The notes under the pieces were generated by a model that saw only the letters and a list, made by a program, of their open reading frames with translations, ran no database searches and was not told the origin of the DNA. DNA of 64,000 nucleotides, taken from the IMG/VR virus record IMGVR_UViG_3300021964_000023, positions 32,001 to 96,000 of that record. The stretch is one strand, 5' to 3'. Of this stretch, positions 24,652-45,074 are shown piece by piece. The first letter of the stretch is position 1. Each line of letters opens with the position of its first letter. The translations under genes were made by a program, and so were the position numbers. The DNA is from a virus.

Positions 24652-25083
24652 ATGGGTAACCTCATGAGATACGGTGCTGCAGATATTTCGCAGCTTCTGG
24701 ATAGAATCAATCGTAATAGTATTGGAATGGACGAGTACTTTGATCGTCTTTTCAACATCCATGAATCATCTACCAACTATCCTCCCTATAATTTGATCCA
24801 GGTTAGCAATGTAGAGTCGCGTTTAGAAATCGCGCTTGCTGGATTCAAAAAGGAGGAGGTAAATGTCTACACCGAGTACGGAAAACTTTTTGTCGAAGGA
24901 CAAAAAGAATCCAAAGGAGATACGAACTACGTCCATAGAGGAATGGCTCAACGATCTTTCACCAGAGCATGGACGCTCAGTGATGATACGGAAATTAGAT
25001 CAGTTACTTTTGAGGATGGGTTACTAAGTATTGAACTTGGTAAAGTAGTTCCAGAACATCATGCTCGCAAAGACTACCTATAA
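24652..25083 (+). CDS. hsp20: Small heat shock protein
   Basis: NYPPYNL, LEIALAGF, HRGMAQRSFTR, FEDGLL. Confidence 0.96.
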   Translation: MGNLMRYGAADISQLLDRINRNSIGMDEYFDRLFNIHESSTNYPPYNLIQVSNVESRLEIALAGFKKEEVNVYTEYGKLFVEGQKESKGDTNYVHRGMAQRSFTRAWTLSDDTEIRSVTFEDGLLSIELGKVVPEHHARKDYL

Positions 25084-42533: not shown

Positions 42534-42541
42534 TATAAATA
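42534..42541 (+). promoter_or_regulatory. Late promoter
   Basis: Perfect TATAAATA 20 nt before ATG 42561. Confidence 0.75.
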
Positions 42542-42560: not shown

Positions 42561-43172
42561 ATGAAGAAGTTTTCGCAATACATTGACGAAACAAGATCCC
42601 TTGCCTCAATTCAAGGTAAGAGACTTGGTTTGGTGCCCGATGGGCATGGATCTTTTCATGACAAAAAAACTGGTGAATTTATTGCGAAGAACGTTGGTGG
42701 TAAACTAAAGTTCTATAACCAGAACCAAATTCTTGGTGAACCCGACCCACCACAAAAAAGAACTCAAAATAATCAGAGACCAGTAGCAACACAAACTTCT
42801 AAAAAGAAGACAAAAAATAGTGTAACTACTGAAGTTCCAGAACAACTCACTCGTAGACAAGAGCAAGAACTTAGAGAAAAGTATATTGCTGGTGATATTT
42901 TTTGTGAGGGATCTTTTGTTCATAATATTAAGACTGATCAGATTGGGAAGATTGTTCGTAGAGGAACAAATCATCTTATCTGTGTAACATCTGAAGATGT
43001 TATGTTTAAGTCATGGATTAGAGATGTCCGAGAGTGGACTGAAGTATCTGGGGTTCCTGCCGATCAAAGACTAGTCGGAACGGATGCTCATAGGGAGTAT
43101 GCCATGAGAATGACTGGAACAAAGAAAATCAGGAATTTCATAAATAAATACAAGGCAAAAAAGACGCATTAG
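42561..43172 (+). CDS. Putative internal head protein, related to termini of cyanophage cytidyltransferase-like proteins
   Basis: N-terminus MKKFSQYIDE resembles the T4 capsid-targeting sequence; DGHG..GKLKFY; GTNHLICVT..FKSWI. Confidence 0.6.
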   Translation: MKKFSQYIDETRSLASIQGKRLGLVPDGHGSFHDKKTGEFIAKNVGGKLKFYNQNQILGEPDPPQKRTQNNQRPVATQTSKKKTKNSVTTEVPEQLTRRQEQELREKYIAGDIFCEGSFVHNIKTDQIGKIVRRGTNHLICVTSEDVMFKSWIRDVREWTEVSGVPADQRLVGTDAHREYAMRMTGTKKIRNFINKYKAKKTH

Positions 43173-43176
43173 AGTA

Positions 43177-44595
43177 ATGGCAAACCTTAAGCATGTTGTC
43201 TCTGATCTTCATCAGGTATATCTGGCGGAGATGGAAGCAAAGATTAAACCTCAGTTAGATAAGTCTTCTGCATCTTCCAGCGGATCAGGTGACGGTGAGA
43301 AGAAAGATTCTGCTGGTGGTGGTGGGGACAATGTTCAGAAGGCAGCGAGACAGCTTGCTTATGACACCAGATATAAAGCAAGAAGGGAAGGTATTCCTTT
43401 AGAGAGAGCATTTACTCAGTCTGTTCAGAACTCTAGCGCACCTGCTCCCGTTAAAGATGCTGCTAAGTCGATGCTCTTTAAAGGTGGTGATAAGAATGAA
43501 TCTTTTGAGATTGAAGAAGGAAGAAAGGGTGATAAAGAAAAAGTTAGAGTTACTCCCAAGAAGGGATACGGTGATGCTAAAGGATATGTAAGATTTGCTG
43601 ATGCTAAAAAGAAGCATGAATTGAGAGCAAACCCTCAAATTCAATCTGTAACTCCTACAGATCATGGTGACGCTTATGAGGGTGAGGATGATAAGAAGAA
43701 GTCTAAGAAAAAGTCTGGCAAACTTGATCCAGTAGGTCAGGAAGACGGTGATGTAAACAATGACGGTAAGAAGGATTCTTCTGACAAGTACCTCATGAAG
43801 CGCCGTAAGGCAATTGGTAAGGCAATTGCCAAAACCAAAAAAGAAGAGTTCTCTAATTGGAAGGCAGAACTTGGTCTTGAAGAAGAGACCATGGTCGAAG
43901 TTGCTGGAGAAGAGAAGTCAAAAAAGATCACTGAGAAGAACGTAAAGAACAAGATTGAGATTCATCCTGATCTCAAAGAAGGCATCGCTAAACTCGGCGG
44001 CGAAGTTCTTGAGGTTGAAGAAGTTGATCAGATTGATGAAATCACTGCCATGGCAAAGCGTGGTCATGATGAGACTGCAATCCGCAATAAGATTGCCAAG
44101 TCAACTGGTGGCGGTAAGTCTGCCGATAGGGCAACTGCACTTGCAGATAAACCCACCTACGGTAATGACAAAGCTGCTAAGCAGAGATCTGATCTTGCTA
44201 GAAAGCAAAGAGGTGACTTCCGTAAGACTGCTTCTTCTTCTCCTGGTCTTCATGGTTATGGACACAAGTCTGATGACCCTAAGGTAAAGGCAAAGCAAGC
44301 AGCACGAGGTGCTCAACGTGGTGCTCTGACACCTAACGAGAAGAAGTCTCTGAATAGAGAAGAAGTTGAGCAGATTGGTGAAGAGAGACCTGTAGATAGA
44401 CTTGATCGTTTAAACAGGGAAAGAATCGCTAAGCAGAAGGCAGCAAAAGATGCTGAGACTGCAAAGAGAGATCAACGTATTTCTGATTTCAAAAGTTTTA
44501 GAGCAGGTGAACGTGCTAAGGGAACTCGTCACGATCACATCCTTGACAAGTGGCAACAGAAGAAGATTGCTGCTGACAAAGCAAAAAAGCAGTAG
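43177..44595 (+). CDS. Late, Lys/Glu-rich putative virion protein; N-terminal part of a -1 frameshift fusion
   Basis: CATAAATA upstream; LDPVGQEDGDVNNDG..DKYL..RRKAI; ends at A AAA AAG CAG TAG. Confidence 0.75.
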   Translation: MANLKHVVSDLHQVYLAEMEAKIKPQLDKSSASSSGSGDGEKKDSAGGGGDNVQKAARQLAYDTRYKARREGIPLERAFTQSVQNSSAPAPVKDAAKSMLFKGGDKNESFEIEEGRKGDKEKVRVTPKKGYGDAKGYVRFADAKKKHELRANPQIQSVTPTDHGDAYEGEDDKKKSKKKSGKLDPVGQEDGDVNNDGKKDSSDKYLMKRRKAIGKAIAKTKKEEFSNWKAELGLEEETMVEVAGEEKSKKITEKNVKNKIEIHPDLKEGIAKLGGEVLEVEEVDQIDEITAMAKRGHDETAIRNKIAKSTGGGKSADRATALADKPTYGNDKAAKQRSDLARKQRGDFRKTASSSPGLHGYGHKSDDPKVKAKQAARGAQRGALTPNEKKSLNREEVEQIGEERPVDRLDRLNRERIAKQKAAKDAETAKRDQRISDFKSFRAGERAKGTRHDHILDKWQQKKIAADKAKKQ

Positions 44596-44625
44596 GCGAG
44601 GCGGCACAACCTAGTGCTTCCTCGC
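44583..44625 (+). other. Programmed -1 ribosomal frameshift signal
   Basis: In-frame A AAA AAG, 6-nt spacer, GC-rich hairpin; -1 frame is open into 44661..45074. Confidence 0.65.
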
Positions 44626-45074
44626 TAAGAGCAAAACAGCAGGATACCGAGCGTCAGCAAATGCAGAATGCAAGAGCTGAATTGGAGACCTCCAGAGCAT
44701 CTTCTGGTCAGGCAAAGATCCAAGCAAGGAAGGATGAGAAGGCACTTAACGATAAAATTCGTTCTATTGCCAGAGAGGAAGCCGAACTAGATGAGCGTAC
44801 TCGTTACGCTAAAGAGACTGGTAAGGATCCTCAGACAGGTAAACCATCAGTAAAAGGTGGAAAAAAACCAGACGCAGCATTTGCTAAAGTCTCTGCTGAA
44901 CTGCGTAAAACTGGTGGAATGATGTCCTCCAGAAGAAAACCTATTCAACCGCAAGGTAAGAAAAAGGAAAAGGGTAAGAAGGGTTACCAAGGAGTAACTC
45001 CTGTTGATAGAATCAAAGGAGAACTTGCAAGGAAGAGAGCACCCAAACCTGATATTGGGTCTCGCTTTGATTAA
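44589..45074 (+). CDS. Basic module, probable -1 frame C-terminal extension of 43177 ORF (track start 44661)
   Basis: Frame open from 44589; EEAELDE linker and K/G-rich composition match the upstream protein. Confidence 0.65.
   Translation, partial: AVGEAAQPSASSLRAKQQDTERQQMQNARAELETSRASSGQAKIQARKDEKALNDKIRSIAREEAELDERTRYAKETGKDPQTGKPSVKGGKKPDAAFAKVSAELRKTGGMMSSRRKPIQPQGKKKEKGKKGYQGVTPVDRIKGELARKRAPKPDIGSRFD

What the first reader, a model, noticed from the sequence alone, without database searches (positions are those of the whole stretch)
44583..44628. dnaX-type -1 programmed frameshift fusing two virion-type ORFs
Seen: ORF 43177 ends GCA AAA AAG CAG TAG, an in-frame A AAA AAG heptamer (44583-44589). 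Six nt later is a hairpin GCGAGG-C-GGCAC-AACCTA-GTGCT-T-CCTCGC (44596-44625). The -1 frame is stop-free for 24 codons into ORF 44661..45074, which has no clear SD and shares the upstream protein's composition. Established: A AAA AAG plus a 3' stem-loop drives -1 frameshifting in E. coli dnaX and IS3-family elements. Inference: a 472-aa and a roughly 632-aa isoform are made at a set ratio. Known phage frameshifts are mostly in tail chaperone or capsid genes, not in this gene type.
Basis: partly seen in the sequence, partly recalled or inferred. Interest (0 to 1): 0.8.

Follow-up and report, generated by a model that had tools for sequence, protein, structure and literature searches.

The report
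Conserved ribosomal frameshift in cyanophage gene
An uncultured T4-like cyanophage and about thirty related marine viral contigs keep a classic slippery sequence plus RNA hairpin at the end of a late gene, so ribosomes very probably slip back one base and add a conserved 161-residue tail to part of the protein; the mechanism is textbook, but I found no report of it for this gene.

Summary
ORF 43177..44595 (472 aa) ends GCA AAA AAG CAG TAG. A_AAA_AAG (44583-44589) is in the slippery phase, and a -20.9 kcal/mol hairpin starts 5-6 nt later. The -1 frame runs 161 codons to 45074, giving a 632-aa fusion.

Comparative evidence strongly supports programmed -1 frameshifting:
- 31 loci (16 distinct sequences, several projects including Sanger GOS contigs) keep heptamer, 6-nt spacer and hairpin.
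- Four versions of the inner stem all pair, three of five pairs through double changes.
- The 18 codons after the hairpin, 12 of them upstream of ATG 44661, evolve as coding sequence in the -1 frame only.
- That ATG is missing in most relatives.
- Most other relatives carry the N-terminal modules and the C-terminal module in one ORF.
- Contigs from three independent DNA runs cross the site without an indel.

Sister cassettes exist on the same heptamer, one in the cultured phage S-BM3. Most picocyanobacteria sampled have only tRNA-Lys(UUU), as E. coli does. No protein or RNA evidence exists, and the protein's function is unknown; it is late-expressed and basic, and only its tail was modelled as extended. 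This scan has noted -1 frameshift cassettes in other cyanophage genes on other DNA, but not in this gene. Verdict: a new member of a known kind.

The parts
42534..42541 (+). TATAAATA, a T4-type late-promoter-like box 20 nt upstream of ORF 42561. It is the likely promoter of the operon that holds the frameshift gene.
   Evidence: That TATAAATA is the T4-type late promoter is established knowledge, not tested here.
43177..44595 (+). 0-frame ORF of 472 aa (pI 9.6, 52 kDa), a mosaic Lys-rich protein. This is the product when ribosomes do not shift.
   Evidence: Its modules recur in single-ORF relatives.
44583..44589 (+). Slippery heptamer A_AAA_AAG in the 0 frame.
   Evidence: Invariant in 31 loci, 16 distinct contexts.
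44590..44595 (+). Spacer CAGUAG holding the 0-frame stop TAG (44593-44595). The distance from the heptamer to GCGAGG is 6 nt in every variant.
44596..44625 (+). Stimulatory hairpin: a 6-bp outer stem, a 1x1 internal loop, a 5-bp inner stem and a 6-nt loop. G44595.U44626 can add one more pair.
   Evidence: -20.9 kcal/mol, z -4.3. (four inner-stem versions, all pairs canonical). (1 variable site in 43 nt, against 46 in 180 nt of flanks).
44589..45074 (+). -1 frame extension of 161 codons plus stop. It is read after the slip and carries the conserved C-terminal module (phrog_11470 positions 551-687).
   Evidence: The model is a long helix from residue 10 followed by a basic tail.
44661..44663 (+). 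In-frame ATG that gene callers use as the start of a separate 137-aa ORF. It is not conserved: Thr in L228 and Ala in the L009, L128 and L224 clades.

Best explanation
This is a programmed -1 ribosomal frameshift. Ribosomes translating the late gene 43177 reach A_AAA_AAG (44583-44589) while the hairpin 6 nt downstream sits at the mRNA entry channel and resists unwinding. The two tRNA-Lys slip back one base, from AAA-AAG to AAA-AAA.

Ribosomes that do not slip read CAG and stop at TAG, giving the 472-aa protein. Ribosomes that slip read on from GCA (44589) for 161 codons and give a 632-aa protein with the family's conserved C-terminal module. That module is a long helix plus a basic Gly/Lys-rich tail.

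Shown here: the signals, their conservation and covariation, selection on the -1 frame, and the fused architecture of relatives. Inferred: that slippage occurs, its rate, and that the point of it is a fixed ratio of a tail-less and a tailed form of a late, basic, possibly virion-associated protein.
For: 1. The signals are present and in phase.

2. The cassette recurs. GCAAAAAAG, a 6-nt spacer and the hairpin GCGAGG-C-5bp-loop-5bp-U-CCUCGC occur in 31 loci, 16 distinct contexts. They come from IMG/VR and from metagenomes of several projects, including Sanger GOS contigs.

3. The hairpin covaries. The inner stems are GGCAC/GUGCU, AGCAC/GUGCU, GGUAG/CUAUC and AGUGG/CCACU. All 20 pairs are canonical, and 3 of 5 pair positions show changes on both sides. 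dG is -18 to -21 kcal/mol.

4. The cassette is conserved above its flanks. Within the window's subclade, 1 of 43 cassette sites varies, against 46 of 180 flanking sites (Fisher p = 3e-4). The one change turns G.U into A-U.

5. The -1 frame is coding upstream of the ATG. In the 18 codons after the hairpin, variable columns by -1-frame codon position are 8, 5 and 17. Synonymous to non-synonymous codon differences are 593:287 in the -1 frame, against 70:826 and 87:824 in the other two frames. Twelve of these codons lie upstream of ATG 44661.

6. The ATG is dispensable. It is absent in L228 (ACG) and in the L009, L128 and L224 clades. In the L009 clade (L009, L015, L026) the next ATG/GTG/TTG is a TTG at codon 51 and the first ATG lies at codons 97-101; L128, L224 and L236 do have an in-frame GTG at codon 5.

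7. Relatives are fused. The majority of the 60 loci found with the C-terminal module carry it at the end of one ORF of about 470-870 aa, which in many cases also holds N-terminal modules of ORF 43177.

8. The site is not an assembly error. Contigs of three independent DNA runs bridge it with no indel.

9. tRNA supply matches the E. coli case. Of 41 genomes of the picocyanobacterial family, 38 show only tRNA-Lys(UUU). One Prochlorococcus genome with 35 tRNAs has no Lys(CUU). The window's 7 phage tRNAs include no tRNA-Lys. That a lone tRNA-Lys(UUU) makes AAG shift-prone in E. coli is established knowledge (Tsuchihashi and Brown 1992, recalled from memory).

10. Sister cassettes use the same heptamer. 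TCC GCA AAA AAG TAG has other 3' structures (z -4.4 to -6.4) and an SD-like AAGGAG 8 nt upstream. It occurs in L025, L248, L043, L328 and the cultured phage S-BM3.
Against: - No protein, ribosome-profiling or RNA evidence exists. The RNA contigs laid stop at 44502.
- This cassette has no upstream SD-like stimulator.
- The window's own subclade does have an in-frame ATG 24 codons after the shift site, so some independent initiation cannot be excluded there.
- L128, L224 and L236 have an in-frame GTG at codon 5 of the -1 frame, so independent initiation cannot be excluded there either.
- The C-terminal module also occurs in shorter, independently started proteins of 246-353 aa in S-BM3, S-ShM2 and ACG-2014d. 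It therefore does not strictly need the N-terminal modules.
- The host is unknown, and 3 of 41 sampled picocyanobacteria carry a tRNA-Lys(CUU).
- The alignment across the exact junction with fused relatives is weak.
Confidence: 0.85

Rival explanations
1. There are two separate genes. The 137-aa ORF is translated independently from ATG 44661, by de novo initiation or by reinitiation after the TAG. The heptamer is a by-product of Lys-rich coding, and the hairpin is an intercistronic element for mRNA stability or control of initiation.
For: - An in-frame ATG exists in the window's subclade.
- Genes here generally lack an SD, so its absence is no argument.
- A_AAA_AAG by chance is not rare. There are 4 in the window, and chance copies lie at the end of the upstream gene in many relatives, where the -1 frame closes after 9-12 codons.
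- The module works in shorter, self-started proteins in some isolates.
Against: - The ATG is replaced by ACG or GCA in relatives that keep the cassette, and in the L009 clade the next candidate start is a TTG at codon 51.
- The 12 codons upstream of it are under -1-frame purifying selection.
- The predicted helix runs through that position.
- The heptamer, the 6-nt spacer and the hairpin are invariant or covarying while the flanks drift.
Confidence: 0.07
2. Transcriptional slippage causes the shift. RNA polymerase adds one A in the A6 run, and the A7 transcripts encode the same 632-aa fusion without any ribosomal slip.
For: An A insertion gives exactly the same protein sequence, so the comparative data on the two frames do not tell the two mechanisms apart. 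No RNA reads across the site were available.
Against: - By established knowledge, productive slippage in bacteria needs runs of about 9 or more A or T; here the run is strictly A6 followed by G in all 31 loci.
- A conserved, covarying hairpin exactly 6 nt downstream fits a ribosomal stimulator. It cannot act on a polymerase that has not yet transcribed it.
- The G at heptamer position 7 is invariant, as expected for an AAG codon in the A site.
Confidence: 0.05
3. The gene is broken or the sequence is an artefact. A one-base deletion, real or from assembly, split a once continuous gene, and the downstream part is decaying.
For: Most relatives are single ORFs.
Against: - The same frame break is present in 16 distinct sequences from many samples and technologies.
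- Contigs of 3 independent runs show no indel.
- Both parts stay open and are under purifying selection across clades that are only about 56-63% identical in protein.
- No stops have accumulated in 161-228 codons.
Confidence: 0.02

Closest known systems
E. coli dnaX tau/gamma -1 frameshift cassette
   Same: The heptamer A_AAA_AAG is identical. A stable stem-loop begins about 6 nt downstream. The shift depends on tRNA-Lys(UUU) being the only Lys tRNA, which is true of most picocyanobacteria sampled.
   Different: This cassette has no SD-like element upstream. In dnaX the shift truncates the protein (gamma), whereas here it extends it by 161 residues. The gene is unrelated, and the context is a phage late gene.
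IS3-family (IS911, IS150) OrfA/OrfAB -1 frameshift
   Same: A_AAA_AAG with a 3' structure. The 0-frame stop follows closely, and the shift fuses two reading frames into a longer protein whose downstream frame has no start of its own.
   Different: The product is a transposase in a mobile element. IS911 also uses an upstream SD and a more complex 3' structure. Here the gene is a phage protein of unknown function.
Phage lambda gpG/gpGT tail assembly chaperone and T7 gene 10A/10B frameshifts
   Same: A late phage gene gives a short form and a C-terminally extended form from one mRNA, presumably at a fixed ratio.
   Different: Those use other heptamers (G_GGA_AAG; G_GUU_UUC region) in different genes. 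T4-like phages are reported not to use the chaperone frameshift (Vladimirov et al. 2022, as cited in PMC10885494).
Sister cassette in cultured Synechococcus phage S-BM3 (SBM3_00120 / SBM3_00119, OQ319121.1)
   Same: The same protein family, with the same GCA AAA AAG at the end of the upstream ORF. The -1 frame leads to the same C-terminal module, and a stable 3' structure follows.
   Different: The upstream and downstream modules differ. The stop follows the heptamer directly. An SD-like AAGGAG lies 8 nt upstream. An in-frame ATG lies only 12 codons after the site, so the need for a shift is less clear there. The record annotates two separate genes.

Membership tests
Canonical bacterial -1 PRF cassette (dnaX / IS3 type) | An X_XXY_YYZ slippery heptamer in the 0 frame. 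| tested here: met
   A_AAA_AAG at 44583-44589 is in phase. It is invariant in 31 loci.
Canonical bacterial -1 PRF cassette (dnaX / IS3 type) | A stable 3' RNA structure starting about 5-9 nt after the heptamer. | tested here: met
   The hairpin has a 5-6 nt spacer, dG -20.9 kcal/mol and z -4.3. Four covarying versions exist.
Canonical bacterial -1 PRF cassette (dnaX / IS3 type) | An SD-like stimulator about 8-14 nt upstream of the heptamer. It is present in dnaX and IS911 but is not universal. | tested here: not met
   No GGAG, GAGG or AGGA occurs in the 30 nt upstream in the window-type cassettes. One is present (AAGGAG, or GAGG in L043, starting 12-14 nt before the heptamer) in the L025, L043 and S-BM3 type.
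Canonical bacterial -1 PRF cassette (dnaX / IS3 type) | The -1 frame is a coding sequence without a conserved start of its own and overlaps the end of the 0-frame ORF. | tested here: met
   The -1 frame shows selection upstream of the non-conserved ATG, and it is closed by TGA 7 nt before the heptamer.
Canonical bacterial -1 PRF cassette (dnaX / IS3 type) | A trans-frame protein is observed, and shifting depends on the heptamer and the structure. | not testable with these tools
   No proteomic or raw RNA data were available. The RNA contigs do not reach the site.
Canonical bacterial -1 PRF cassette (dnaX / IS3 type) | The host decodes AAG with tRNA-Lys(UUU) only, the condition for high shiftiness of A_AAA_AAG. 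| tested here: inconclusive
   By similarity search, 38 of 41 genomes of the Prochlorococcus/Synechococcus family show only Lys(UUU) and 3 also have Lys(CUU). One full tRNA set has UUU only. The actual host of this phage is unknown.
PHROG 11470 / T4-GC_1139 C-terminal module proteins of cyanomyophages | A sequence match to the family profile. | tested here: met
   ORF 44661 matches profile positions 551-687 of 687, E = 5.8e-43. There are 21 invariant columns in 38 relatives.
Virion (structural or internal head) proteins of T4-like phages | Detected in virions, or homologous to a known structural protein. | not tested
   The evidence is only indirect: a late-promoter box at 42534, and a neighbouring gene family annotated as 'virion structural protein' in S-BM3. 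Pfam, PDB and the Atlas give nothing.

The most novel reading that the evidence does not exclude
The GCA_AAA_AAG frameshift cassette may be a portable joint in a mosaic protein family, and part of a wider recoding layer in T4-like cyanophages. The same upstream module ending ...EKEKSAKK is joined by the shift to two different downstream module sets (L025/S-BM3 type and L043/L328 type). Different upstream modules are joined to the window-type extension. Earlier notes of this scan report the same heptamer in other late genes and in lysin genes of cyanophages. If so, these phages systematically use the host's single tRNA-Lys(UUU) to set isoform ratios of several late proteins, and recombination shuffles protein modules across a conserved recoding site.
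Probability: 0.3. Interest if true: 0.7.

Novelty: new member of a known kind. Interest (0 to 1): 0.5.

Why it matters
T4-like cyanophages are among the most abundant viruses in the sea, yet their genomes are annotated as if every protein came from one plain ORF. Here gene callers report a 472-aa and a 137-aa 'hypothetical protein'. The comparative data say the real products are a 472-aa protein and a 632-aa protein carrying a widely conserved C-terminal module.

This corrects annotation for a whole family, including a sister site in the cultured phage S-BM3. It adds a gene type outside the usual tail-chaperone and capsid cases to the list of phage frameshifts, in a phage group reported not to use the chaperone frameshift. 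It also gives a simple handle on an unknown late protein: the tail-less and tailed forms can be made separately by recoding the heptamer.

Tried and rejected
A tighter pattern was needed, and even then most hits were unrelated terminator-like hairpins, which I filtered out by script.
- MAFFT misplaced the 3-nt loop gap. RNAalifold's pair table therefore understates covariation, and I counted pairs on a structure-anchored parse instead.
- AAAAAAG at the end of the upstream gene (...FINKYRKK*) in many relatives looked like a second site, but the -1 frame closes after 9-12 codons. These are chance copies and serve as a control.
- L027, L029 and L266 have the right geometry but an ATG within 2-8 codons of the heptamer, so they remain ambiguous.
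- S-WAM1 shares only a middle module at 94% identity and not the junction.
- Syn9 gp114 shares only an internal module and lacks the C-terminal module, so it says nothing about virion location.
- No cultured phage in the collection has the window-type or the L009-type cassette.
- Pfam (only a sub-threshold dockerin/EF-hand-like hit), the PDB sequence search and the ESM Atlas gave no function.
- The AlphaFold model is an extended helix plus tail (pTM 0.27), so I ran no fold search on it.
- All sequencing runs were held as contigs. The RNA contigs stop at 44502, so neither expression across the site nor A7 transcripts could be examined.
- Four literature searches found no paper on frameshifting in this gene or in cyanomyophages. 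The library is incomplete, so this is not proof of absence.
Full report
**What is there.** The window is part of a 107-kb IMG/VR record of an uncultured T4-like cyanomyophage, which CheckV estimates as 56% complete. Its neighbours include a gp61-type primase, ribonucleotide reductase and a cytidylyltransferase-tail protein. The nearest named relatives are Kyanoviridae.

ORF 43177..44595 encodes 472 residues and ends GCA AAA AAG CAG TAG. A_AAA_AAG at 44583-44589 lies in the X_XXY_YYZ phase. The -1 frame read from 44589 is open for 161 codons, to 45074. It is closed by TGA at 44574-44576 just upstream and has no ATG, GTG or TTG before the ATG at 44661. The virtual fusion is 632 aa, pI 9.75.

The hairpin GCGAGG-C-GGCAC-AACCUA-GUGCU-U-CCUCGC folds at -20.9 kcal/mol, with z = -4.3.

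**Is it more than chance?** The heptamer alone is not rare. It occurs four times in the slippery phase in 51.6 kb of coding sequence in the window, but only this copy has a -1 frame longer than 4 codons.

Many relatives have a chance copy at the end of the upstream gene (...FINKYRKK*), where the -1 frame closes after 9-12 codons. I scanned 220 loci collected by protein homology. The full geometry is a long upstream ORF, a 0-frame stop within 10 codons and a -1 frame of 100 codons or more. It occurs 14 times in the slippery phase and 0 and 1 times in the two control phases.

**Relatives.** A protein search with the -1 frame translation found 60 viral loci. In eight of them (L004-L009, L015, L026) the match begins at or near the first codon after the heptamer. 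All eight have GCAAAAAAG, a 0-frame stop 0-5 codons later and the hairpin.

DNA pattern scans of IMG/VR and of metagenomes raised this to 31 loci with 16 distinct 500-nt contexts. They come from several projects, including Sanger-sequenced GOS contigs. In all of them:
- a 0-frame ORF of 358-496 codons ends right after the heptamer;
- the -1 frame runs 161-228 codons.

**RNA-level conservation.** The distance from the heptamer to GCGAGG is always 6 nt, and the outer stem is invariant. The inner 5-bp stem exists in four versions: GGCAC/GUGCU, AGCAC/GUGCU, GGUAG/CUAUC and AGUGG/CCACU.

All 20 pairs are canonical, and three of the five pair positions change on both sides. The variants fold at -18 to -21 kcal/mol, with z from -4.0 to -5.5.

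Within the window's own subclade of nine distinct sequences, 1 of 43 cassette positions varies, against 46 of 180 flanking positions (p = 3e-4). The single change converts a G.U pair into A-U. In the -1 frame, third codon positions pair with third codon positions in the stem. Even so, the third positions within the outer stem never vary across any of the 31 loci, whereas 17 of the next 18 third positions vary in the 15-sequence set.

**Protein-level selection on the -1 frame upstream of the ATG.** In the 18 codons after the hairpin, 12 of which precede ATG 44661, variable columns fall 8, 5 and 17 on -1-frame codon positions 1, 2 and 3. Synonymous to non-synonymous codon differences are 593:287 in that frame. 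They are 70:826 and 87:824 in the other two frames.

The peptide SSL(R/S)A(K/R)QQDTER is kept with many synonymous changes. The ATG itself is ACG in one GOS contig of the nearest subclade. It is GCA in the L009 and L128 clades and GCG in L224/L236. In the L009 clade the next possible start codon is a TTG at codon 51, and the first ATG lies at codons 97-101. L128, L224 and L236 do have an in-frame GTG at codon 5. In most of these relatives, translation of this stretch can therefore be reached only by a -1 shift at the heptamer.

**Architecture of the family.** The 137-aa ORF matches the last 137 positions of a 687-position PHROG. In the majority of the 60 loci, the same C-terminal module ends a single ORF of about 470-870 aa. 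In many cases (for example L011, L018, L051, L033, L037) that ORF also carries N-terminal modules of ORF 43177. These include an 84%-identical dockerin/EF-hand-like motif.

The family is strongly mosaic, and shorter self-started versions exist in isolates. Fusion is therefore the common state, not an obligatory one. The alignment across the exact junction is weak.

**Artefact excluded.** Contigs from three independent DNA runs bridge 44583-44589 with no inserted or deleted letter. RNA contigs did not reach the site, so neither expression nor transcript editing could be examined.

**Sister cassettes.** L025/L248 and L043/L328 share an upstream module ending ...EKEKSAKK (in L043...KRKSAKK) with TCC GCA AAA AAG TAG. 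They continue in the -1 frame into two different module sets that end in the same C-terminal module. Each has its own stable 3' structure (z -4.4 and -6.4) and an SD-like AAGGAG or GAGG 8 nt upstream.

In L043/L328 a conserved NYEGPLYAP module lies before the first ATG. However, an in-frame GTG at codon 5 of the -1 frame precedes that module, so independent initiation there cannot be excluded.

The cultured Synechococcus phage S-BM3 has the L025-type site between SBM3_00120 and SBM3_00119, which its record annotates as separate genes. An in-frame ATG follows after 12 codons there, so that case is less compelling by sequence alone. It does offer an experimental system.

**Mechanistic plausibility.** From established work on dnaX, A_AAA_AAG is highly shift-prone in E. 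coli because a single tRNA-Lys(UUU) reads AAG weakly. I tested the analogous condition in likely hosts.

One Prochlorococcus genome, with 35 tRNAs found, has only Lys(UUU). By similarity search across 41 genomes of its family, 38 show only Lys(UUU) and 3 also have Lys(CUU). The window's seven phage tRNAs include no tRNA-Lys. The true host is unknown, so this is supportive only.

A T4-type late-promoter box TATAAATA lies 20 nt upstream of ORF 42561, the first gene of the operon. The next gene family downstream is annotated 'virion structural protein' in S-BM3. This makes a late, possibly virion-associated role plausible but not shown.

The AlphaFold model of the extension (38-sequence alignment, mean pLDDT 75, pTM 0.27) is a single long helix from residue 10 to 77. 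The helix runs through the Met position and is followed by a basic tail with two short helices.

**Rivals.**
- Independent initiation at 44661 is contradicted by the loss of that ATG in relatives and by selection upstream of it.
- Transcriptional slippage would give the same protein. It is unlikely for a strict A6 run, and it does not explain a covarying hairpin 6 nt downstream. It cannot be excluded without raw RNA reads.
- A broken gene or an assembly error is excluded by conservation and by the independent contigs.

**Comparison and novelty.** The signal is the dnaX/IS3 type, with the same heptamer and a 3' stem-loop at the same spacing, but without the upstream SD-like element. As in IS3 OrfAB and lambda G/GT, and unlike dnaX, the shift extends the protein.

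Four literature searches found nothing on frameshifting in this gene or in cyanomyophages. A 2024 survey tool paper cites work showing that T4-like phages do not use the tail-chaperone frameshift.

Earlier notes of this scan report -1 cassettes in other cyanophage genes on other DNA (lysins, another late gene with GCAAAAAAGTAG). None concerns this gene. I did not test those notes.

I rate this a new member of a known kind. It is well supported by comparative evidence and of moderate interest. The open questions are the function of the protein and the ratio of the two forms.

Noticed in passing
window 43139-43150, and the equivalent site in L013, L014, L028 and L029: The conserved C-terminal ...FINKY... 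motif of the upstream gene (ORF 42561) is encoded by (T/C)ATAAATA(A/G), a T4 late-promoter-like box. It lies about 30 nt before the start of the frameshift gene. A promoter may be embedded in the coding sequence and so constrain that peptide.
   Followed up: partly
window 43735-43824 (residues 187-216 of ORF 43177): A dockerin/EF-hand-like calcium-binding-type motif (DGDVNNDGKKDSSD, then YLMKRRKAIGKA). It is sub-threshold in Pfam (Dockerin_1, E = 0.019) and PDB (4fl4, E = 0.04). It is 67-84% identical in otherwise diverged relatives (L033, L037), making it the best-conserved N-terminal module.
   Followed up: partly
L485 3116-3200 (Synechococcus phage S-BM3, OQ319121.1, SBM3_00120 / SBM3_00119): A cultured phage carries a sister cassette: an SD-like AAGGAG, 8 nt, GCA AAA AAG TAG, then a two-tier structure of -28 kcal/mol whose inner hairpin holds the annotated ATG of the next gene in its loop. 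The record annotates two genes.
   Followed up: partly
L029 1447-1480; L266 2743-2800; L027 2797-2830: Further in-phase A_AAA_AAG sites lie at ORF ends with long -1 frames of 186-642 codons, but an ATG follows within 2-8 codons. They may be chance overlaps or further frameshift sites.
   Followed up: no
L468 and L469 (G025, G034); L481 (G021): Three of 41 sampled picocyanobacterial genomes (2.7-3.0 Mb) carry a tRNA-Lys(CUU). In two of them it lies about 130-140 nt from the tRNA-Lys(UUU) gene. Such hosts might support less shifting at A_AAA_AAG.
   Followed up: partly
L409-L413 (genome-contig hits to the window's hsp20, 24652-25083): Close homologues of the phage hsp20 (66-76% identity) sit on short contigs of MAGs labelled Psychromonas, Acidibacter, Thermoplasmata, Actinomycetota and Formosa. 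They are most likely cyanophage contigs mis-binned into unrelated genomes.
   Followed up: no
window 42561-42590: ORF 42561 begins MKKFSQYIDE. The S-WAM1 cytidylyltransferase homologue begins with a similar ...RFRQFIIE. This is relevant to whether the operon's products are packaged.
   Followed up: no
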